A DNA stretch of 64,000 nt from Candidatus Latescibacterota bacterium (lineage in GTDB: Bacteria > Latescibacterota > UBA2968 > GCA-2709665): assembly GCA_965203805.1 (NCBI GenBank), contig OZ241917.1, positions 1,696,001 through 1,760,000 of the forward strand, given 5' to 3'. The number at the start of each line of letters is the position of its first letter. The stretch's first letter is position 1. A model generated the notes under the pieces. The model was not told the DNA's origin, searched no databases, and saw nothing but the letters and a program-made list of their open reading frames with translations. A program made the translations under genes and the position numbers. This document shows, piece by piece, positions 7,223 through 15,459 of this stretch.

Positions 7223-10200
7223 CTAACGTCTGGTCAGACGGGCATCCTGGTGCAGGCCGTAGATGATGTAGTCGGTGAGTGCCTGAATAACCACGTCTGA
7301 GGGCAACTCGAGAAATTCGTCCGAGGGTTTGACCCCCTCCGGCAGCTTCAGATAGGCGGCCATTTCCTCCGGCAGGTAGGTCATTTCGTCGCCGAAGAAC
7401 GTAGGCATCTTGGTGCCCGGCTGGATCTTCTGCGGATCCCACAGCCAGTCCCGGATCCATGCCGGTTTCAGCCGCTCCCGCGCCAGCTTCAGGTCGGGCG
7501 CCCAGCTTGCCGGGTCGCCCGTAGGCTTGATATCGCCCTGCTGGTGGCAGGTGAAGCAGTTGTAAATGTCGGCGCTGAACAACTTCCTCGCGCCCGTGAT
7601 GTCTCTTGAACTCAACCGCTTATGCACAAACGTCGCATACGGGAACTGCTCCTTGTCCAGGCGGGAAAAATAGGTGACCAGGTCGATTGCTTGCTGGTCT
7701 TCGAAGCCGAACGAGGGCATTCGCACTTCGAGCCACGGACGGATGGGTTCCACGTTTTTCAGGAATGAGAAGAACCAGTCCGGCTGGACTTTTCTGCCCT
7801 CGCCGTTCAGTTCCGGCGGCACGAAACCCACGGCGTCGGCGGCGGAGACGTCCTCGGCGCCGTAAGCCTTCACCATCGGATCCCGGATTGCTCCGCCCTG
7901 GTGCTCCACAACGTGGCACCCTTTGCAGTTCCTGTCGTACACCAGCCAGCGGCCCTTCTCGATATCCACTTCATCCGGTGCGAGGCGTTTGATCGCGTCC
8001 GATCCCGCCTGGCTCCGGTTCAGGCTAAGCAGCGCCGTCGTCAACGCGTGCGCATCCTCGTCGCTCAGGCCGTACTGCGGCATACGCAGCTTGTCGTCGA
8101 ACAGTTTCACCTTGCCCTTGTCGAAAACACGGGGTTGCTTGAGCTTTTTGTAGAACCAGTCGTGACGCGTATAGGGAATGGCGTCCGGATCGGTGTTGTA
8201 GGAGCCCGGCTTTTTGGCCAGCAGGCCAAAGTCCAGCTTGTCGACGTCCTTGCTGCCTTGCTCGGTCAGTTCCGTTCCGATGGGCTGGGCATCTTCGAAT
8301 CCCGGAATGAGGTGGCATCCGAAGCAGCCCTGCCGGGAAATGATCTTCTCGCCCAGCCAGATATCCCGCTCATGGCTCGACATCCCGGCCAGTTGCTCCT
8401 TCGCGGTCTTCACGGGCAGCCTGCTTCGAAGATAGTTCAGTACCAGATCGTCGCGCACCTGCGTGTCCACTGCCGCCAGTTGTCGGGCTTCAAACTCCGT
8501 ATTTCGAAGGGTAAGCAGATATGCGGTAATGTCGGCAGCTTCCCGGTCTGTCAGCCGTAGATTCGGCATACGGGTGTCCGGGAAATAGGCCGTGGGATCC
8601 TTCAGCCATGCGAACAGCCACCCTGAAGACAGCTTGCTGCCCACGTCGTTCAGATTCGGGCCGAAGTTCCGGAGGCCGTATTCCTGGCCCAGCCGGTCGT
8701 CCGCGCCCACCGCGTGGCAGGCCTTGCAGCCCACCATTTCCACGAGGCGCTCGCCGCGGCCGGCATCGCCCTGCACCGGAGGCGCGGGGTAGCGGGGCCG
8801 CTCGGACTTGTCGAAGATATACGTCACGATGGCATTGACAGCAGCCGTATTGCGCGCGATATCCTCCGGACCGCTCACGTTGGCCAGATCGAAAATCTTG
8901 GGCATTTTGGTGGATGGCCGGAACCCCTTGGGATCACGCACCCACTTGATTGTCCAATCGCGTTCCAGCTTGCCTGCTGCCTTTCGCAGGTCGGGTCCGA
9001 CCCTTCGCCCGTCCTGCAGCGTATGTTTTGCTATCTTGTGGCACCCGTGGCAACCCAGCGTGCGAACGAGATGGATGCCGCGATTCAGGTTGTCCGCCTG
9101 CGGCACGTCCACAACGCCCGCGTGGCACTGCGCGCACGTGGATTCGACATATCGGCTGGGCAGCATCGGGTGGTCCCAGTATTTCATTTTCTTCCAGCCG
9201 TACAGTCTCTTCCAGCGAGCCGCCTCGACGTCGTCGCCCGGGGTATGGGCCGTATTCTTGAATGTGACGCCCCGGTCGCGCCCGAGATGACATGTCGTGC
9301 ATCCTGACTCGTCGATCGGATGCGGCGAGCCGCTGCTCAGGAAAAGGTCCAGTCTCGGATGCGTGGCGAATGCCCTGGTGCGGCCAAGCCGTACATCCTC
9401 ATCCGCGTGGACCGTTTCCATATACGCCCTGAGCTTCTCATCCTTGAACCAGCCGGTTTCCGGATCGAGTTCGTACCCCGGACGGTCGATGTTCACGTGG
9501 CACGTGGTGCACCGGTCCACCCGGGGAACCCGGGTAAAATTGAGTTCGTTTCTCAGATCGGCCAGAACAACCTGTCGGACTTTTATAGACGGATCGATAA
9601 AATCGACCATCGGCAGGTTTCGGAACACATTGGGGAAACTGGGCACGAGCCCCGTCAATTTTCGCCTCAGGTTGTCTTCATCCTTGCGCAGCGAGCGCCG
9701 CCTGGACGCCAGTGCCTGTCGCTTCCCGGCCACTTCATCGATGATCTTCTGCTGCGCCGCCTGTTTCTCCTCTACCGCCTCTTTGGCCAGCCGGAACTCG
9801 AATATCCGGCCTTCCATGGCCTCCATTTCGGCCTTTTTCTTCGCCGCGGTTTTCTCGTTCCCGGCTTTGGCCGCGTCTTCATACTCAAACTTCACCACGT
9901 CGTATTGCGCTTTTTCAAACTTGAGCCTCTGATCGGCGCCGTACCAATCGGCCTGCGTCAACCGTTTCAACTCACCGGTCGCCGCGTCGTATTGTTCCTG
10001 GTGCGCCTGGATTGCGGCCTGGATCCCGGCAAGTTCGTCCTCGATTGCCTTCAGTGCGTCCTGATCGACGTTCTCCTGCGCCAGCTTGATTTCCGCTTCG
10101 GTCTTGTAGGCCTCCAGCGCCATTGCTTCCTTTTGAAAATCCTTCCATTCCCGGTCGTAGTCGTCCCAGACCATCCAGAGCACGGCGAGAACCAGAACCA

Positions 10201-10276
10201 CGCTGGACACGGCGAAAATCATGTTCATTCTGTCTACATTGTAGACGAAATCTATGAAGCGCTTCGGCTCATTCAT
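7223..10276 (-). CDS. Membrane-anchored octaheme cytochrome c of the Rieske/cyt b complex
   Basis: N-terminal TM helix, long coiled coil, 8 CxxCH motifs (CTTCH x2, CAQCH, CHGCH, CKACH, CFGCH, CKGCH, CFTCH). Confidence 0.92.
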   Translation of the reverse strand: MNEPKRFIDFVYNVDRMNMIFAVSSVVLVLAVLWMVWDDYDREWKDFQKEAMALEAYKTEAEIKLAQENVDQDALKAIEDELAGIQAAIQAHQEQYDAATGELKRLTQADWYGADQRLKFEKAQYDVVKFEYEDAAKAGNEKTAAKKKAEMEAMEGRIFEFRLAKEAVEEKQAAQQKIIDEVAGKRQALASRRRSLRKDEDNLRRKLTGLVPSFPNVFRNLPMVDFIDPSIKVRQVVLADLRNELNFTRVPRVDRCTTCHVNIDRPGYELDPETGWFKDEKLRAYMETVHADEDVRLGRTRAFATHPRLDLFLSSGSPHPIDESGCTTCHLGRDRGVTFKNTAHTPGDDVEAARWKRLYGWKKMKYWDHPMLPSRYVESTCAQCHAGVVDVPQADNLNRGIHLVRTLGCHGCHKIAKHTLQDGRRVGPDLRKAAGKLERDWTIKWVRDPKGFRPSTKMPKIFDLANVSGPEDIARNTAAVNAIVTYIFDKSERPRYPAPPVQGDAGRGERLVEMVGCKACHAVGADDRLGQEYGLRNFGPNLNDVGSKLSSGWLFAWLKDPTAYFPDTRMPNLRLTDREAADITAYLLTLRNTEFEARQLAAVDTQVRDDLVLNYLRSRLPVKTAKEQLAGMSSHERDIWLGEKIISRQGCFGCHLIPGFEDAQPIGTELTEQGSKDVDKLDFGLLAKKPGSYNTDPDAIPYTRHDWFYKKLKQPRVFDKGKVKLFDDKLRMPQYGLSDEDAHALTTALLSLNRSQAGSDAIKRLAPDEVDIEKGRWLVYDRNCKGCHVVEHQGGAIRDPMVKAYGAEDVSAADAVGFVPPELNGEGRKVQPDWFFSFLKNVEPIRPWLEVRMPSFGFEDQQAIDLVTYFSRLDKEQFPYATFVHKRLSSRDITGARKLFSADIYNCFTCHQQGDIKPTGDPASWAPDLKLARERLKPAWIRDWLWDPQKIQPGTKMPTFFGDEMTYLPEEMAAYLKLPEGVKPSDEFLELPSDVVIQALTDYIIYGLHQDARLTRR

Positions 10277-10380: not shown

Positions 10381-11457
10381 TCAGATATTGAAGAAATACT
10401 CAGGTATGGCGACGATGTATTTCAGGTTGAACAGCCAGCGCAGCAACATCTTGATGGGGAGGGCGACCATGCAGAGGAAGAAAAAGATCATCACGCTGTA
10501 GCGGGCGAATCCCATGTTCTTGTAGAATTCCTTGAACACCGTCTGCGCGAGCAATGGCGGCGGAACCAGAAAATACAGGATCACCAGCAGAAATCCCCAG
10601 ATCTCGCGCATCAACCAGAACGAAGGCAAACCCGTGCCCAGCCACTGGACGTAGATATATTCCGAAAGATTGACGTTGACAAGCGCTTCCAGCTTATGTA
10701 CGTCCCAGAATTCGTATGGGCCGAAGAAGTTCCAGTTCGGCCCGCGCAGGAACGTGCCGATCATGATCAGCACCACCCACAACACCACAAAACCGAACAG
10801 GAACACCGTAATGGCGAACCGGCGTTCCTTGAAGGTGTAGTAGCCCAGACCTTTGGGATTCCGATCGATAAACGGAATGGCCATGAGTCCCACAATCACG
10901 AGGGTTGGCAGAACAACCCCTGCGATCCACGGATCGTAATAGACCAGCATTTCCTGAAGTCCCAGGAAATACCATGGCGCCTTGGATGGATTAGGAGTCT
11001 TTGCGGGGTTGGCGGGCTCTTCGATAGGCGCTTTTATAAGTACGGACCAGAGAATCAGGAAGACAGTGGCCAGCGTCAGGCAGATCAACTCCGTGTACAC
11101 CAGGTGGGGCCAGGTGAGGACTTTTTCCTTGAATTCCGCTTTTTCAATCGGTCCTTCGCCCCTCGCGATGCGTTCGTCGTTGTCGTACCCCTGTTTCATG
11201 GCGTACCAGACAAAGAAACCCACCAGGAACAGCAGCATGACAATGGGGATATTGTCACCCTTCGTCACGATGATGCGAAAATTCTCATCCTGAAAACTAA
11301 CCAGGAAAAATACGATCGAGGCGATCAGGGCGGGCAGGCCGAAGCGGACCGTCCATACCCAGCGGGTCCGCAAAGCCAGAAAGAAGAGAATGGCAAACAA
11401 CGGCATGAAATATTCAGGCGTAAGAAGCCAATTGACGAAGCCTTTCAGAACGTCCAT
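10381..11457 (-). CDS. Cytochrome b C-terminal subunit (PetD/subunit IV-like) with extra TM helices
   Basis: EEPANPAKTPNPSKAPWYFLGLQE (PEWY-equivalent region) and AIPFIDRNP; follows the b6-like gene. Confidence 0.85.
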   Translation of the reverse strand: MDVLKGFVNWLLTPEYFMPLFAILFFLALRTRWVWTVRFGLPALIASIVFFLVSFQDENFRIIVTKGDNIPIVMLLFLVGFFVWYAMKQGYDNDERIARGEGPIEKAEFKEKVLTWPHLVYTELICLTLATVFLILWSVLIKAPIEEPANPAKTPNPSKAPWYFLGLQEMLVYYDPWIAGVVLPTLVIVGLMAIPFIDRNPKGLGYYTFKERRFAITVFLFGFVVLWVVLIMIGTFLRGPNWNFFGPYEFWDVHKLEALVNVNLSEYIYVQWLGTGLPSFWLMREIWGFLLVILYFLVPPPLLAQTVFKEFYKNMGFARYSVMIFFFLCMVALPIKMLLRWLFNLKYIVAIPEYFFNI

Positions 11458-11506: not shown

Positions 11507-12292
11507 CTACATTGGTCCCGATATCCCGCCGTCTTTCCGCACCCGCCAGAAGTGAACGGCCATCAACACAGCCGCCACGAACGGGATGAACAGACAATGC
11601 AGGACATAGAATCTGAGCAGCGCGCCCTCCCCGACAAAGCGGCCTCCCAGCAACGCGAATCGGGCATCGTCGCCGGCGTGAACCAGATTGATATCGCCAA
11701 GCATCAGGAACGCCGCTCCGGGCCCCTCGTGACCGAGGAAAGGGGTTGCGCGGGCCATATTCGACCCCACGGTAATGGCCCAGATGGCAAGCTGATCCCA
11801 GGGCAGAAGGTACCCGGTAAAGCTCAACAACAACGTCAGAAGAAGCAGAATGACCCCGATCGCCCAGTTGAATTCGCGGGGAGGCTTGTAAGACCCGGTC
11901 ATAAACACGCGCAACATATGGAGCCAGACCGTAATGATCATGGCGTGGGCGCCCCATCGGTGGATTTCCCGCATGATGCCCAGCGGCACCTGCTCGCCCA
12001 GGTCTATAATGTCGGTGTAAGCGTACTCCAGAGTGGGCCGGTAGTAAAACATCAGCAGAATGCCGGTGATGGTCTCAATGAGAAAAATAAAAAAGGTGAG
12101 CCCACCCATACACCAAGTGTAGCGCACCCTGATTCCCGATTTTGGCGTGCGCACAGGATGCAGATGCAGGAAAACATTGGTCAACACCACCTGCGCGCGC
12201 CCGCGTTCGTCTCTCGGTACGTCGTGCCGGAAGATGGACTTCCAGATCTGAGAGCGCTTGGTCCGGTCCAGGAGGCCGGAGATTTTCGGCAT
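11507..12292 (-). CDS. qcrB: Cytochrome b6-like subunit (N-terminal half of split cytochrome b)
   Basis: [39 protein letters not shown] and RFYVLH motifs. Confidence 0.93.
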
Positions 12293-12378: not shown

Positions 12379-13329
12379 CTATATCCGCAGGAACGACTCC
12401 GGGTTGTCCCAGTGACCCTTCTCGTACAGGAATTTTCGGGTTTTGTCGACCAGCACCTGCCCGTCTTCGGCCAGTACGATGCGCGCCCTTTCCAGGGGGC
12501 GCGGCGCCGGACCCTCGAAGTTGATGCCCGACATGTAAAATCCGCTGCCGTGACACGGACATTTGAATTTCTGTTCGTTGCCCAGCCAGTTGGGGGTGCA
12601 GCCCAGATGCGTGCACACCGAAATGAGCGCGAACATGTCCTGCGTGGACTTGACGATCCAGACGCTGAACTTGTCCTTCCAGCGTTCATCCACGCCCAGG
12701 TCGTAATCTTCCGCGAACCCGATCTTGAAAGACTGGGGCGGCTCGAACAACACGTTCGGGAACAGAAAGCGCCCGAAACCCAGAAGCCCGGCCGCCGACG
12801 CGACCGCAAAGGACGCCCAGGCCAGGGTCAGCCAGGTGAAGAATCCGCGGCGGGTGGTCATGCCGCCTTCGGCGACGGCCTGCGTTCTCTCCGGGCCGGG
12901 ACGGATTGCGGGCGGCGCCGGAGACGTCTGAACGATCACACGCTCCTCGGCGGGCTCGTCGGTCTTCTGCGTTAACGCGCGAGCGGCGGCGGCCCGGTCC
13001 GCGGTGGATGCGGCTTTCCTGGCCGGCGGGCCGGACGGCGCCGGTTTTGCGCCGCCGCGAGCCTTGCGCATGAGTTCGGCCTTGGCCTTTGCGCGGGCAA
13101 CGCGGTCCTGGATCTCGTCCAGCGACGAAAGATCCACTTCGGCGGCGGCGGATTCGCCTCCCGATTCATCCGGGGCCTGCGAGGAAGCCTCGCCTGCCGG
13201 CGTCTCCCCGGACGCATCACCCGCGGCGGCCTCCCGGGCCTTGCGGAGCGCCTCCGCTTTGGCCTTGGCCCTGGCCACCCGATCCGGAATTTCGTCAAAT
13301 TCCGAAAGATCGATTTTTTCGTCCGACAT
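12379..13329 (-). CDS. qcrA: Rieske 2Fe-2S subunit with a ~155-aa N-terminal extension
   Basis: CTHLGC and CPCHGS motifs; internal Tat-like TRRGFF followed by a TM helix. Confidence 0.93.
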   Translation of the reverse strand: MSDEKIDLSEFDEIPDRVARAKAKAEALRKAREAAAGDASGETPAGEASSQAPDESGGESAAAEVDLSSLDEIQDRVARAKAKAELMRKARGGAKPAPSGPPARKAASTADRAAAARALTQKTDEPAEERVIVQTSPAPPAIRPGPERTQAVAEGGMTTRRGFFTWLTLAWASFAVASAAGLLGFGRFLFPNVLFEPPQSFKIGFAEDYDLGVDERWKDKFSVWIVKSTQDMFALISVCTHLGCTPNWLGNEQKFKCPCHGSGFYMSGINFEGPAPRPLERARIVLAEDGQVLVDKTRKFLYEKGHWDNPESFLRI

Positions 13330-13452
13330 GGTGTTCCCCGGAAACCGGCCATGCGGTTTTTGGATCGGAAATCGTCAGATCTGAATTATATATGATATAA
13401 GTTTATAAAATACCGGAAATTGCATCATTTACGGCCTGGAATACAACGGGCC

Positions 13453-13481
13453 AATATATCCAAACCACCCCGGAATGTCAA
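13453..13481 (-). promoter_or_regulatory. Sigma70-type promoter of the respiratory operon
   Basis: TTGACA-17 nt-TATATT on the minus strand, about 125 nt upstream of the Rieske ATG. Confidence 0.7.
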
Positions 13482-13588
13482 GCGGGATTTTCTGCAGATT
13501 CGCACCTTCCGGGAGCCAAAGAAAAGGGGATCCGACAGGCGCCCCCGATGGCCGGATCCCTCGCCGAAAATCCATCGGTTCAACCCGC

Positions 13589-14497
13589 TCATTTCCCATC
13601 CCATCCATTCAGAACCTCGATGGCGGCCTGCCGGACCCGCAAGTCCGGATCCTGATTACGCAGCCGCTGCAGCGCAGGTGCCAGCGACGTCGCGTTGAGC
13701 ATGCCCACGGCCCTGATCGCTTCGACGAGAATATTACGTCGCCCCTCTCCGCTTATCCTTTCGAAACCATTCAGATACCCCGGGCTCAGCATTTCGCCCA
13801 GCACCTCCAGACCCGCGCTGTTACCGGCGGAAGCCAATTGCAATGCGGCGTTCCAGCGAACGTCCGGGGTTCGGTCGTGAAGCGCCTGTTCGAGTGCCGG
13901 CGGCACTCGCGGATCATCGAAATTGCCCAGCGCGAATACCGCGGCCTTGCGCAATCCGGCATCGTCGCCTGACGCGATCCTGATAAGATGCGGGACGGCC
14001 GTGGGATCTGCCTGCGCCCGGAGCGAGAACATTGCGTTGATACGGGTTTCGTCGTCCGGGTCATCCAGTGCGGAAATCAGAACGCCGACGAGTTCAGGAT
14101 CCCGCACCCGTCCCATCGCAGCGGCGAGAAAGCGCCTCACCCGCGGATCGTCCGAGCGGGAAGCTTCGAACACCCGGATCAACTCCCCGACGAACCTGTG
14201 ACCGATCCGTCCTTCCCGCTGTTCCTGGTCGAGTACCGTGGCCAGTTCATACGCCGCCTGCCACCGGCTGTTGATGCCGCCCACGCGAATGGTATTGAGA
14301 TAGTCCTCCGCGGTCTTTCTTTCGGCCGTCAACAACCCCAGCCCCAGGTATATGGCAAGCGCCACGAGGATGATCGCCACCGGAAAGATGACGAACTGCG
14401 AAACCAGCCTTGCCCGTGAGACGTCCGCGTCCGAAACCGGAGCGGTGGCGTCTTCGGCGATTTTTCTGAGTTCCTCTTCGGGAGTCGGTTCGTTCAT
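13589..14497 (-). CDS. Membrane-anchored HEAT-repeat protein
   Basis: One TM helix, then repeated DxDxxVRxxAxxAL units. Start at MNEPT. Confidence 0.85.
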   Translation of the reverse strand: MNEPTPEEELRKIAEDATAPVSDADVSRARLVSQFVIFPVAIILVALAIYLGLGLLTAERKTAEDYLNTIRVGGINSRWQAAYELATVLDQEQREGRIGHRFVGELIRVFEASRSDDPRVRRFLAAAMGRVRDPELVGVLISALDDPDDETRINAMFSLRAQADPTAVPHLIRIASGDDAGLRKAAVFALGNFDDPRVPPALEQALHDRTPDVRWNAALQLASAGNSAGLEVLGEMLSPGYLNGFERISGEGRRNILVEAIRAVGMLNATSLAPALQRLRNQDPDLRVRQAAIEVLNGWDGK

Positions 14498-14565
14498 TTC
14501 ACAACCTCTGCAGCGAATAACTGCAAATGCCACCCACCGGGCGGACGCGCGAATACACGCAGTCC

Positions 14566-14670
14566 AATATATACAGCGCCGGCACGCGCTGTCAAGGTTT
14601 TGGTCCCGCGCGAAGTTTGCCCGGCCCTGGACCCTTCCTTCTTGACAACCCCCGGCAAAGACCTTATTTT
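14566..14670. promoter_or_regulatory. Divergent sigma70 promoters (HEAT gene on minus, Fe-S protein on plus)
   Basis: Minus strand: TTGACA(14595-14590)-18-TATATT. Plus strand: TTGACA(14642-14647)-17-TATTTT(14665-14670). Confidence 0.55.
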
Positions 14671-14727
14671 ATCCTCGGACGACACAGACTGCATCTGGAA
14701 TTTCCGAACACAGGAGATCACAATACA

Positions 14728-15459
14728 GTGAACGTCGACCTTACCCAGTTTGACGGCATCACCGACCGGGTGGCGCGCGCCAGGGCCAAAGCCGAGGCCA
14801 TGCGGAACGCAAAACAGGGCGGTGGCGACGCGGAATCCGCACCCGACGCGGCCAGGGCCGAACTGGAAGCATCGGCCGCACCCGCGGAAGCCGAACAGGA
14901 ACCCGCCGGCCTGACCATTCTCGAATTCAGGCCCGGCATCCACTTCAAACTGAACGGGCGGGCCGGACGGACGGTGGGCATCCGTTACGATCTGGTCAGT
15001 TTCGTGTACGACGACGACCCCGACCAGCTCGTTACCGCGGACCGATACCGCCTCAGTCACGCCCACGCCGAAGGCACGCTGGAATTCGCGCCGAAGTCGG
15101 AGGTCTACAGACCGGAGCGCGTCGCGAAGAAAGAACGCGTCGACTTCCACGAACACCTGTGGCTCGAGTCCCGCTCCGGCATGACGGCCAAGAAGAAACG
15201 GCCGCGGCATATCGCCATTATCAACCCGGACTACTGCACCGGCTGCAATGCCTGCATCGAAGTCTGTCCGACCGACTGTATCGAGGAAGTGGACGTGGCC
15301 GATGCGGGCCTCGACGGCATCGGCACATTCTGTGAAGTGCGCCTGGAAGACTGCATCGGATGTATCCAGTGCGTGCACATCTGTCCGTGGGAAGCCATCG
15401 AAATGGTGGACACCCCGCGGGTCGAGGAGGCATACGGCATTCCCGTGGGGACGCTGTAG
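14728..15459 (+). CDS. 2x[4Fe-4S] ferredoxin-domain protein with an N-terminal extension
   Basis: GTG start after AGGAGA; CTGCNACIEVCP and CIGCIQCVHICP motifs. Confidence 0.88.
   Translation: MNVDLTQFDGITDRVARARAKAEAMRNAKQGGGDAESAPDAARAELEASAAPAEAEQEPAGLTILEFRPGIHFKLNGRAGRTVGIRYDLVSFVYDDDPDQLVTADRYRLSHAHAEGTLEFAPKSEVYRPERVAKKERVDFHEHLWLESRSGMTAKKKRPRHIAIINPDYCTGCNACIEVCPTDCIEEVDVADAGLDGIGTFCEVRLEDCIGCIQCVHICPWEAIEMVDTPRVEEAYGIPVGTL

What the first reader, a model, noticed from the sequence alone, without database searches (positions are those of the whole stretch)
13060..14811. A 26-aa motif shared by the Rieske protein's cytoplasmic tail (x2) and a divergently encoded 2x[4Fe-4S] protein: candidate docking module
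Seen: IDLSEFDEIPDRVARAKAKAEALRKA (Rieske, nt 13314-13237), VDLSSLDEIQDRVARAKAKAELMRKA (Rieske, 13137-13060) and VDLTQFDGITDRVARARAKAEAMRNA (Fe-S protein N-terminus, 14734-14811). 16 of 26 positions are identical in all three. Each copy is followed by an Ala/Pro/Glu-rich linker, and the codons differ, which suggests protein-level conservation. Knowledge: residues before the Rieske Tat/TM anchor remain cytoplasmic, and the Fe-S protein has no visible signal peptide. Inference: the motif self-associates or binds a common partner, tethering a ferredoxin to the cytoplasmic face of the complex near heme ci. That could allow cyclic or bifurcating electron flow, or redox control. The ARAKAK core loosely recalls RnfC/RsxC C-terminal repeats. 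I know no named family for this motif.
Basis: partly seen in the sequence, partly recalled or inferred. Interest (0 to 1): 0.85.

Follow-up and report, generated by a model that had tools for sequence, protein, structure and literature searches.

The report
Shared docking tag on respiratory proteins
A short, strongly conserved peptide tag on flexible linkers is shared by a membrane respiratory complex and a nearby iron-sulfur protein, and the same pairing recurs in a second bacterial phylum, which suggests a tether that wires iron-sulfur modules to the complex.

Summary
Three copies of a 26-aa element (16/26 identical) lie at the stated coordinates: two in the cytoplasmic N-tail of a b6-type Rieske protein and one at the N-terminus of a divergently encoded protein (tag, linker, SH3-like barrel, 2x[4Fe-4S]). 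The tag is conserved at the protein level (pN/pS about 0.18, synonymous sites near saturation). It has no other copy in this 5.9-Mb genome. It occurs in 30 of 168 Latescibacterota genomes, always as 2-3 copies at this one locus. A profile search of 1.84 billion proteins found only 27 carriers. Five orthologous or paralogous Rieske loci that lack the partner also lack the tag. In one family the partner is split into a tagged, membrane-anchored barrel protein and a separate ferredoxin. Independently, in an actinomycete order a related module (hhalign 96%) is shared by exactly two proteins: the C-tail of NuoI and the N-tail of subunit IV of a b6-type complex. It is on both in 11 of 11 genomes where both genes are intact. 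The best reading (0.55) is a paired docking or tether tag. Binding itself is unproven. The resemblance to RnfC/RsxC repeats is not supported. No curated family or paper describing the tag was found.

The parts
13237..13314 (-). Tag copy 1 (Rieske residues 6-31): acidic turn IDLSEFDEIPD (net -5) followed by basic helix RVARAKAKAEALRKARE (net +5)
   Evidence: weak AF2 support for turn plus helix (helix 17-36, pLDDT 54-73)
13141..13233 (-). Linker 1 of the Rieske tail (residues 33-63), rich in Ala/Glu/Gly/Ser; variable in length between genomes
   Evidence: coil with pLDDT 30-56
13060..13137 (-). Tag copy 2 (Rieske residues 65-90)
   Evidence: Present in genera g1, g5, g9 and g11; absent where the Rieske has one copy
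12856..13056 (-). Rest of the cytoplasmic tail (residues 92-158): Ala/Pro-rich, with two further conserved stretches (around ADRAAAARALT and VIVQTSPAPPAIRPGPER)
   Evidence: invariant columns R112, A114, A116, R117, L119, T120, Q134, P137, P139, P140, R143-G145
12763..12855 (-). Twin-arginine motif (TTRRGFF) and single TM anchor of the Rieske protein. It places residues 1-158 in the cytoplasm.
   Evidence: hydrophobic segment 167-185; helix 160-189. The topology rests on established knowledge of Rieske/cyt b complexes.
12379..12762 (-). Rieske [2Fe-2S] domain (CTHLGC...CPCHGS) and stop codon
14728..15459 (+). Partner gene (243 aa from GTG 14728): tag, linker, small beta-barrel, basic segment, 2x[4Fe-4S] domain. 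No hydrophobic segment.
14734..14811 (+). Tag copy in the partner (residues 3-28)
   Evidence: turn 5-8, helix 14-30, pLDDT about 70
14815..14901 (+). Partner linker (residues 30-58), rich in Ala/Glu, predicted disordered
   Evidence: (pLDDT below 50 for 32-57)
14905..15093 (+). SH3/Tudor-like small beta-barrel (residues 60-122). It always accompanies the tag in Latescibacterota partners, in both the fused and the split forms.
   Evidence: pLDDT 79-90; best Z 5.0-5.4, generic
15208..15456 (+). 2x[4Fe-4S] ferredoxin domain (residues 161-243), net charge -14. It is preceded by a basic segment (+6) that contains WL...KKKRPRHIAI.
   Evidence: It is similar to operon-encoded ferredoxins of other b6-type operons.
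13589..14533 (-). HEAT-repeat protein with one N-terminal TM segment, directly upstream of the Rieske gene on the same strand. The start is uncertain (ATG 14497 possible).
   Evidence: present in 11 of 11 loci; also at the tag-less G048 operon
11507..12292 (-). Cytochrome b6-type subunit. The Cys in YTWCMGG aligns with Cys35 of solved b6.
10381..11457 (-). Enlarged subunit IV-like protein (358 aa, about 8 hydrophobic segments)
7223..10276 (-). Membrane-anchored octahaem cytochrome c (8 CxxCH motifs, one N-terminal hydrophobic segment)

Best explanation
The 26-aa element is a portable docking or tether tag. It consists of an acidic turn (DLSxFDxIxD) followed by a basic, Ala-rich helix (RVARAKAKAEAMRKA). 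It is displayed on disordered Ala/Pro/Glu linkers in the cytoplasm. In this genome it is carried twice by the N-tail of the Rieske subunit of a b6-type Rieske/cyt b complex (split cyt b, heme-ci Cys kept, octahaem cyt c). It is carried once by the N-terminus of a divergently encoded soluble protein (tag, linker, SH3-like barrel, 2x[4Fe-4S]). I propose that the matching tags bring the two proteins together at the cytoplasmic (n) face of the complex. This could work by tag-tag association, since the tag is a charge dipole and so is self-complementary in an antiparallel arrangement. Alternatively, both tags could capture the same acidic surface, the obvious candidate being the ferredoxin domain (net -14). 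The docked 2x[4Fe-4S] clusters could then exchange electrons with the n-side of the complex (heme bn, heme ci, Qn site). Shown: the existence of the tag, its protein-level conservation, its restriction to these two gene products, their co-occurrence and synteny, the cytoplasmic placement, and an independent parallel in actinomycetes. Inferred: the binding itself, its mode, and any electron transfer.
For: (1) Purifying selection on the peptide: pN/pS 0.17-0.19 with pS 0.61-0.76, including between the two copy types within one genome. Nine columns are invariant in 27 copies from 11 genomes.
(2) Exclusivity: only 3 copies in the own genome. 30 of 168 genomes of the phylum carry it, each with 2-3 copies at a single locus. 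27 proteins reach E<=0.001 among 1,835,955,588. By my reading of their sequences, 21 are Rieske tails or partner proteins, 4 are a NuoI-tail variant, 1 is an unassigned fragment and 1 is an unrelated repeat protein.
(3) Co-occurrence: the full-length partner and the orthologous Rieske occur in the same 30 genomes. Four further genomes have the orthologous Rieske (56-64% identical) but no tag and no barrel partner (G048, G049, G050, G071). The second Rieske operon of G079 also lacks the tag.
(4) Synteny: partner, then divergently HEAT-Rieske-cyt b-subunit IV-cyt c, in 11 of 11 loci from 10 genera.
(5) The architecture changes but the tags stay. In family f3 the partner is tag x2, barrel and a C-terminal hydrophobic anchor, and the ferredoxin is a separate adjacent gene.
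(6) Independent replicate. In an actinomycete order, 16 of 17 genomes carry a related module (hhalign Prob 96.4%, E 1.2e-9, 22 columns), at no more than two loci per genome. These are the C-terminal tail of NuoI (8 of 8 loci; NuoI models are the best hits) and the N-terminal tail of a subunit IV-like protein (4 of 4 inspected; 45% identical to the window's subunit IV). That protein lies in an operon Fer4-cyt b6-subunit IV-Rieske-cyt c. By match pattern, 11 genomes have both. In the 6 others the missing partner is cut by a contig end or is not in the assembly.
(7) Ferredoxin genes accompany b6-type operons in three contexts (window; G079 second operon; actinomycete operon).
(8) The cyt b keeps the Cys that aligns with Cys35 of b6.
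(9) The tag works at an N-terminus, internally and at a C-terminus, always on low-complexity linkers. That fits a binding module and not a targeting signal.
Against: No physical interaction has been demonstrated. Co-variation between the Rieske and partner copies within genomes is marginal: identity 0.715 within against 0.700 between genomes, with 145 of 10,000 shuffles reaching the observed value, and shared phylogeny confounds this. Copies resemble their orthologues (0.79/0.78) more than their within-genome partners, so specificity co-evolution is not evident. In f3 and in the actinomycetes the ferredoxin itself is untagged, and in f3 the tagged partner is already membrane-anchored, so simple 'tether a soluble ferredoxin' does not cover all cases. 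The link between the actinomycete and Latescibacterota modules rests on the helix half only, which is short and compositionally biased, so convergence cannot be excluded. G048 carries a different repeat at the same position that is shared with no other protein in its genome. So Rieske tails can carry modules with some other, non-paired role. Both AF2 models are of low overall confidence (mean pLDDT 54 and 44).
Confidence: 0.55

Rival explanations
1. Both tags bind a third, separate component that is neither tagged protein nor the ferredoxin domain. Candidates are a scaffold protein, the membrane-anchored HEAT-repeat protein encoded between the two genes, anionic lipids, or a polyanion such as nucleic acid or polyphosphate. 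Co-localisation would then be indirect, or might not be the point at all.
For: The invariant charged residues (D3, D12, R13, R16, K20 of alignment A3) suggest specific recognition of some surface. The HEAT gene lies between the two tagged genes in 11 of 11 loci, and ARM/HEAT repeats often bind basic peptides (my own knowledge). G048's Rieske tail carries a different module with a faint Rho_N-like match (E 0.05), which hints that tails of this Rieske subfamily may bind something else.
Against: The HEAT gene is also present at the tag-less G048 operon. No HEAT family was found among the 9 ORFs scanned at the actinomycete operon. So HEAT is not coupled to the tag. A general scaffold or lipid-binding helix would be expected on more than two proteins per genome, but the tag is on exactly two in both lineages. 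Rieske, subunit IV and the f3 partner are already membrane-anchored, so a membrane-binding role adds nothing.
Confidence: 0.2
2. The element has no docking function. It would be a local structural, stability or regulatory element, for example an autoinhibitory or cap helix, or a degradation or turnover signal. It would act separately in each protein and be shared only through common descent by duplication.
For: The copies behave as old, independently conserved orthologous lineages without clear co-variation. Copy number varies from 1 to 3 per protein. No interaction has been shown.
Against: Independent local roles do not explain why the tag is kept on exactly one complex subunit and one Fe-S-associated protein encoded at one locus, why both are lost or absent together, or why the same two-protein pattern recurs with different carriers in actinomycetes.
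Confidence: 0.1
3. The tag recruits a maturation factor, for example an Fe-S cluster delivery co-chaperone or a Tat proofreading chaperone, to Fe-S proteins.
For: Rieske, the Fe-S partner and NuoI are all Fe-S proteins. The Rieske protein is a Tat substrate that must receive its cluster before export (my own knowledge). Short basic motifs recruit Fe-S co-chaperones in mitochondria (recalled, not tested here).
Against: Two carriers have no Fe-S motif: the f3 barrel-plus-anchor partner and the actinomycete subunit IV. The separately encoded ferredoxins in those lineages are untagged. All other Fe-S proteins of the genome lack the tag. The partner and NuoI are not Tat substrates.
Confidence: 0.07
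4. The similarity is an artefact: low-complexity Ala/Lys/Arg composition, chance, or recent gene conversion between neighbouring genes.
For: The helix half is compositionally biased, and the genome is GC-rich with strong codon bias, which inflates DNA identity.
Against: The acidic half, with its invariant D, L, I and D, is not low-complexity. Synonymous sites between copies in one genome are saturated (pS 0.76) while pN is 0.14. The tag is conserved across three families and 10 genera and is absent from the rest of the genome.
Confidence: 0.03

Closest known systems
Anammox (Kuenenia) Rieske/cytochrome b complexes with an added cytoplasmic NAD(P) oxidoreductase subunit
   Same: A Rieske/cyt b complex with multihaem cytochrome c subunits and an extra cytoplasm-facing redox subunit. 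That subunit is proposed to take low-potential electrons from the b-haem side (PMC12954380; I read passages of the abstract, introduction and discussion).
   Different: Here the added protein is a small 2x[4Fe-4S] protein with an SH3-like barrel and no flavin or NAD(P) domain. It is encoded divergently. The link to the complex is proposed to be a shared peptide tag on flexible linkers, and the passages I read describe nothing of that kind.
Cytochrome b6f acting as ferredoxin:quinone reductase through heme cn/ci
   Same: A b6-type cyt b with the Cys that aligns with the heme-cn ligand, and a ferredoxin-type protein proposed to dock on the n-side by charge complementarity. [quoted passage not shown]
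   Different: This is a non-photosynthetic organism. The ferredoxin-like protein is dedicated and encoded at the locus. The complex has an octahaem cyt c and an enlarged subunit IV. Docking would be through an appended tag and not only through a surface patch.
Actinomycete NuoI C-tail and subunit IV N-tail module
   Same: The core DRVARAKAK is identical and a basic helix follows an acidic D...[FY]D..I segment (hhalign Prob 96.4% over 22 columns). It sits on Ala/Pro linkers at protein termini. Exactly two proteins per genome carry it, one a b6-type complex subunit and the other a 2x[4Fe-4S] protein.
   Different: The carriers differ (NuoI of complex I and subunit IV, not a ferredoxin-like protein and Rieske). 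One tag is C-terminal. The N-half has different spacing and was not aligned by hhalign. The SH3-like barrel was not found with a single-sequence query in 0 of 5 genomes.
RnfC/RsxC C-terminal repeats
   Same: A basic Ala-rich helix (…AAIARAKARK…) is repeated six times on linkers at the end of a 2x[4Fe-4S]-containing subunit of a membrane redox complex (E. coli RsxC). This is an architectural analogy.
   Different: Only the hexamer IARAKA is shared. All 8 domain scores against the tag profile are negative. There is no acidic half. The window's genome has no RnfC above the family cut-off.
Peripheral-subunit-binding domains of 2-oxoacid dehydrogenase E2 and docking domains of modular synthases (functional analogies, recalled from my own knowledge)
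   Same: Small helical, charged modules on Ala/Pro-rich flexible linkers or at chain termini that recruit a partner protein.
   Different: There is no sequence relation. No such family appeared in the Pfam scans of the tails at E<=1. The tag is shorter, at about 26 residues.

Membership tests
b6-type Rieske/cytochrome b complex | Rieske subunit with the CxHxGC...CxCHG cluster-binding boxes and an N-terminal RR signal anchor | tested here: met
   CTHLGC and CPCHGS are in the ORF. Pfam Rieske E 8e-8. PetC and Rieske models of NCBIfam are the best hits but below their equivalog cut-offs. TTRRGFF is followed by one hydrophobic segment.
b6-type Rieske/cytochrome b complex | Split cytochrome b (b6-like four-helix part plus subunit IV-like part) | tested here: met
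   Two adjacent genes match Pfam Cytochrome_B (E 3e-41) and Cytochrom_B_C (E 1e-8). The best solved relatives are cytochrome b6 chains (E 3e-41).
b6-type Rieske/cytochrome b complex | Cys that binds heme cn/ci covalently | tested here: met
   The Cys in YTWCMGG aligns with the Cys in IFYCLGG at residue 35 of chain 2zt9_A. That this residue is the heme cn ligand is from my own knowledge. The presence of the haem cannot be tested here.
2x[4Fe-4S] bacterial-type ferredoxin domain (Fer4 families) | Two CxxCxxCxxxCP motifs | tested here: met
   C170/173/176/180-P and C209/212/215/219-P are invariant in 29 sequences. Fer4_21, Fer4 and Fer4_7 score above their cut-offs.
RnfC/RsxC C-terminal repeat | Sequence match of the tag profile to the repeats of E. 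coli RsxC | tested here: not met
   hmmsearch of the A3 profile against RsxC gave 8 domains, all with negative scores, and only IARAKA aligned.
Actinomycete NuoI/subunit IV tail module | Profile-profile similarity over the whole module | tested here: inconclusive
   hhalign Prob 96.4%, E 1.2e-9, but only over the 22-column helix half of a short, compositionally biased profile. The weak direct hits have tblastn E 2e-5 to 6e-4.
SH3/Tudor-like small beta-barrel | Fold match of the middle domain | tested here: inconclusive
   The best matches are CarD-N, Tudor, UvrD-C, FeoA and KOW, with Z 5.0-5.4, rmsd 1.8-2.3 A and 46-55 residues aligned. This is below the level at which the tool considers a match specific.
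Any curated family covering the tag (Pfam, NCBIfam) | A family model matching the tag or the tails | tested here: not met
   No family matched residues 1-160 of the Rieske protein or residues 1-220 of the partner at E<=0.01. Scans of the tails alone at E<=1 gave only noise (E 0.07-0.9).

The most novel reading that the evidence does not exclude
A portable, self-matching docking tag physically wires 2x[4Fe-4S] modules onto the cytoplasmic face of b6-type Rieske/cyt b complexes. The module is a dedicated ferredoxin-like subunit in Latescibacterota and complex I itself, through NuoI, in an actinomycete order. This would create a tethered ferredoxin (or complex I) to heme ci/bn electron path. It would be a natural ferredoxin:quinone-reductase-type or bifurcating b6 complex, and in the actinomycetes a complex I-b6 supercomplex held together by flexible tethers.
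Probability: 0.25. Interest if true: 0.9.

Novelty: new variant of a known kind. Interest (0 to 1): 0.72.

Why it matters
Whether ferredoxin-type carriers dock on the n-side of b6-type complexes and feed or drain heme ci is a long-standing open question. The review read says the ferredoxin-quinone reductase may be cyt b6f itself and that the docking site is unresolved. This locus offers a defined candidate docking device: a dedicated ferredoxin-like protein and a 26-residue tag that can be deleted, swapped or synthesised. That makes the question directly testable in vitro. The recurrence of the same two-protein tag pattern on NuoI and subunit IV in a second phylum suggests a general, undescribed way of coupling Fe-S modules or whole complexes to Rieske/cyt b complexes through flexible tethers. 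If it binds specifically, the tag would also be a compact natural docking pair for engineering electron-transfer assemblies.

Tried and rejected
- **Complex prediction.** I sent the full Fe-S protein, two 4Fe-4S clusters and Rieske residues 1-36. The verdict was 'no answer' (ipSAE 0.00 and 0.01; the controls were not run). It is no evidence either way.
- **Co-variation of copies within genomes.** The signal was marginal and is confounded by phylogeny, so I did not use it as support.
- **HEAT protein as the common receptor.** Rejected as the leading idea. It is present at the tag-less G048 operon, and no HEAT family was seen among the 9 ORFs scanned at the actinomycete operon.
- **SH3-like barrel as the universal receptor.** It was not found in 0 of 5 actinomycete genomes with a single-sequence query. 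This is weak evidence.
- **RsxC homology.** Rejected.
- **G048's alternative tail repeat.** It is not shared with any other protein of that genome (next hit E 0.14). for the same question failed on a frame error of mine and was corrected.
- **Third module variant (P0073/P0078 type).** The 'longer' search found only 5 proteins: 3 Fer4/NuoI-like and 2 fragments. No second carrier type and no names were returned.
- **AF2 models.** Both have low overall confidence because the alignments are shallow (mean pLDDT 54 and 44). I used only the barrel (pLDDT 79-90) and the helix/coil pattern, and the pattern only as weak support.
- **Literature.** Searches returned no paper describing this tag, a tagged Rieske tail, or a NuoI tail of this kind. 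The mycobacterial complex I preprint reports extensions on NuoB, C, H and J, and none on NuoI in the passages read. The passages read were not relevant to the tag. Supplements were not consulted.

Full report
**1. Observation.** Aligned without gaps, 16 of the 26 core positions are identical in all three. The nucleotide copies differ mostly at third codon positions. The minus-strand ORF 12379-13329 is a Rieske protein of 316 aa (Pfam Rieske; the best NCBIfam hits are PetC and Rieske models, below their equivalog cut-offs). The plus-strand gene has two complete CxxCxxCxxxCP motifs. It most likely starts at GTG 14728 behind an AGGAG, as its homologues begin MNVDL. The tag is therefore at the extreme N-terminus of both proteins, and the Rieske tail holds a second, internal copy. 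A profile of the three copies finds no other copy in the 5.87-Mb single-contig genome (next best E=0.87; 49 candidates scored).

**2. Anatomy.**
- The tag has an acidic half (I/V-DLSxFDxIxD, net -3 to -5) and a basic, Ala-rich half (RVARAKAKAEAMRKA, net +5 to +6).
- AF2 predicts a short turn followed by a 15-20-residue helix for all three copies (pLDDT 54-73). The stretches between them are predicted as coil with pLDDT 30-50. Both models are of low overall confidence (mean pLDDT 54 and 44), so this is weak support.
- The linkers are rich in Ala, Glu, Gly and Pro and vary in length between genomes.
- In the Rieske protein the tail (residues 1-158) precedes the twin-arginine motif TTRRGFF and the single hydrophobic segment. 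By the established topology of Rieske subunits, the tail stays in the cytoplasm.
- The partner protein has no hydrophobic segment. After tag and linker it has a confidently modelled small beta-barrel (residues 60-122, pLDDT 79-90). The barrel resembles SH3/Tudor-like domains only generically (Z 5.0-5.4). Then come a basic segment (+6) and a very acidic 2x[4Fe-4S] domain (net -14).
- The Rieske gene heads an operon with a b6-type cytochrome b, an enlarged subunit IV (about 8 hydrophobic segments) and a membrane-anchored octahaem cytochrome c. The cyt b Cys in YTWCMGG aligns with Cys35 of solved b6 chains. From my own knowledge, that Cys is the covalent ligand of heme cn/ci.
- A HEAT-repeat protein with one TM segment is encoded directly upstream of the Rieske gene.

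**3. Conservation and distribution.**
- Record titles of near-identical loci place the clade in Latescibacterota.
- In the 168 genomes held for the phylum, 30 carry the tag. Excluding the window's genome, the counts are family f1 21/21, f2 6/31 and f3 2/3, with 0 of 112 in the other eleven families. Every carrier has 2 or 3 copies.
- In 11 of 11 loci from 10 genera the arrangement is the same: partner gene, then divergently HEAT-Rieske-cyt b-subunit IV-cytochrome c.
- Across 29 loci the copies are under strong purifying selection at the protein level. pN/pS is 0.17-0.18 with pS 0.61-0.65. Between the Rieske and partner copies of one genome, pS is 0.76 and pN/pS is 0.19. This excludes recent gene conversion.
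- In 27 copies from 11 genomes, nine columns are invariant (D, L, I, D, R, R, A, A, K) and six more are at least 90% conserved.
- A profile of these 27 copies, run against 1,835,955,588 representative proteins, found only 27 proteins at E<=0.001. By my reading of their sequences (Pfam), 21 are Rieske tails or partner proteins, many of them fragments. Four are a NuoI-like protein and fragments of it with a diverged form of the module. One is an unassigned fragment and one is an unrelated repeat protein.
- No Pfam or NCBIfam model covers the tag, the tails or the barrel.

**4. Natural controls.**
- The full-length partner, including the barrel, is found in exactly the 30 tag-carrying genomes. 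Elsewhere there are only generic ferredoxin-domain hits, the best at E 4e-16.
- The orthologous Rieske is found in the same 30 genomes, and at 56-64% identity in four further genomes of other classes (G048, G049, G050, G071). None of these four has the tag or a barrel partner. Their Rieske tails are short or different.
- G079 has a second Rieske/cyt b operon whose Rieske has a short, untagged tail. This operon contains an 85-aa 2x[4Fe-4S] ferredoxin gene between subunit IV and the cytochrome c.
- Close relatives of the Rieske domain in other phyla (65-69% identical) are only about 180-200 aa long.
- So the tag on the Rieske protein is present exactly where the tagged barrel protein is present.
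- Genus g6 (21 genomes, many of them single-contig) lacks the whole module.
- G048 is a caution. Its Rieske tail carries two copies of a different 40-aa repeat on Ala/Pro linkers, and no other protein of that genome shares it.

**5. A variant architecture.** In family f3, and in four metagenomic proteins (P0055, P0056, P0068, P0070), the partner consists of two or three tags, the barrel and a C-terminal hydrophobic anchor, with no Fe-S motifs. In the two f3 genomes the ferredoxin is a separate, untagged 105-aa gene immediately downstream. It is 71-75% identical to the C-terminal part of the window's protein and begins at the WL...KKKRPR...IAIINPD segment. The constant features are therefore the tags, the barrel and a nearby ferredoxin. 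Fusion to the ferredoxin is not constant.

**6. An independent parallel.**
- Eight actinomycete MAG loci (Mycobacteriales/Frankiaceae by record title) gave weak hits. All eight lie in C-terminal extensions of NuoI-like proteins: Ala/Pro linkers followed by one or two copies of ...[IV]DQxTYDxAIAxGLPDRVARAKAKSAWVKKARKG. NuoI models are the best NCBIfam hits for the one protein I scanned.
- The profile of this module matches the Latescibacterota profile over the helix half (hhalign Prob 96.4%, E 1.2e-9, 22 columns).
- I searched five of these genomes with the NuoI-tail profile. Each had exactly one further locus (E 1e-12 to 1e-18).
- In 4 of 4 loci inspected, this is the extreme N-terminus of a subunit IV/PetD-like protein, followed by a long Ala/Pro linker and the core with NPSKAPWYFLGLQE. 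It matches Pfam Cytochrom_B_C and is 45% identical to the window's subunit IV.
- That protein is encoded in an operon 2x[4Fe-4S] protein-cyt b6-subunit IV-Rieske-cytochrome c.
- The operon's ferredoxin is untagged. It resembles the window's Fe-S protein beyond the cluster motifs (33% over 90 aa, E 2e-7).
- In the GTDB order of these MAGs, 16 of 17 genomes carry the module, at no more than two loci each. By match pattern, 11 have both types, 3 have only the subunit IV type, 2 have only the NuoI type and 1 has neither.
- In all six exceptions the 'missing' gene is either cut by a contig end just where the tail would lie (NuoI of G176 and G182; subunit IV of G180 and G182) or was not found in the assembly (NuoI of G178 and G181; subunit IV of G183). 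No intact untagged orthologue was seen next to a tagged partner. G182 does have a second, 62%-identical subunit IV paralogue without a tag.
- The N-terminus of subunit IV lies on the n-side in b6f (my own knowledge). NuoI is in the cytoplasmic arm of complex I.

**7. Interpretation.** Two unrelated lineages keep a DRVARAKAK-type module on flexible linkers on exactly two proteins. One is a subunit of a b6-type Rieske/cyt b complex. The other is a cytoplasm-exposed 2x[4Fe-4S]-associated protein.
- This pattern is what a paired docking or tether tag predicts.
- It argues against an Fe-S maturation or Tat-proofreading signal, because subunit IV and the f3 partner have no cluster.
- It argues against a membrane-binding helix, because several carriers are already anchored.
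- It argues against a targeting signal, because the tag works at N-termini, internally and at a C-terminus.
- Two binding modes remain open. One is tag-tag association: the tag is a charge dipole and could pair antiparallel. The other is capture by both tags of the same acidic ferredoxin domain. These data cannot separate them.
- The functional consequence remains an inference: electron exchange between the 2x[4Fe-4S] clusters and the n-side of the complex, giving ferredoxin:quinone-type, cyclic or bifurcating flow. The closest described ideas are the anammox Rieske/cyt b complexes with a cytoplasmic NAD(P) oxidoreductase (PMC12954380, passages), and the proposal that cyt b6f itself is the ferredoxin-quinone reductase through its extra c haem (PMC7908018, passages).

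**8. What does not fit or is weak.**
- Within-genome co-variation of the copies is marginal.
- The link between the actinomycete and Latescibacterota modules rests on a short, biased helix.
- The AF2 models are of low overall confidence.
- The RnfC/RsxC resemblance is only an analogy.

**9. Verdict.** The docking-module interpretation is partly supported by comparative evidence and strengthened by an independent parallel, but binding is unproven. I found no curated family and no paper that describes the tag. I rate it as a new variant of a known kind: an accessory cytoplasmic redox subunit of a Rieske/cyt b complex, with a previously undescribed shared peptide tag. Interest is 0.72.

Noticed in passing
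window 13589-14533 (-): A HEAT-repeat protein with one N-terminal TM segment is encoded directly upstream of the Rieske gene in 11 of 11 Latescibacterota loci. It also lies downstream of the tag-less G048 operon (43% identical). This looks like a conserved accessory or assembly factor of this Rieske/cyt b complex. Its topology and role are unknown.
   Followed up: partly
L086 8792-10006 (-) (genome G048): The orthologous Rieske protein of another Latescibacterota class has a long N-tail with two copies of a different ~40-aa repeat (L[NS]AEQLRAAAEALGIEVKAHGRLGAGAMKRVQ) on Ala/Pro linkers. It has a faint Rho_N-like match (E 0.05). The repeat occurs nowhere else in that genome.
   Followed up: partly
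L089 6171-11197 (+) (genome G079, second operon): A second Rieske/cyt b operon has an 85-aa 2x[4Fe-4S] ferredoxin gene inserted between subunit IV and the multihaem cytochrome c. Its Rieske has a short, untagged tail.
   Followed up: partly
window 12856-13056 (-), Rieske residues 92-158: Besides the two tags, the Rieske tail has two more conserved stretches (around ADRAAAARALT and VIVQTSPAPPAIRPGPER) just before the twin-arginine motif. The first looks like a degenerate half-tag.
   Followed up: no
window 10381-11457 (-) and 7223-10276 (-): Subunit IV is unusually large (358 aa, about 8 hydrophobic segments, three of them N-terminal to the PetD-like core). The cytochrome c is a 1017-aa octahaem protein with an N-terminal anchor, a long charged helical region and FixO/cbb3-subunit-III-like domains.
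   Followed up: no
proteins P0073, P0200-P0202 (metagenomic; no locus): A third lineage of NuoI-like proteins carries C-terminal extensions with two copies of a longer, diverged module (DLSxLNxIxDRVxR[GS]xAK followed by about 35 more conserved residues). No taxon name and no second carrier protein could be found.
   Followed up: partly
L119 (G182:C340:2504-2950): One actinomycete genome has a second subunit IV paralogue, 62% identical to the tagged one, with no tag hit.
   Followed up: no
protein P0075 (121-aa fragment): A fragment of unknown parentage holds two tag-like helices (EDRVARARAKAAAIRAQ and TDRVERSRAKAAW) and has no Pfam family. It may be a further carrier type.
   Followed up: no
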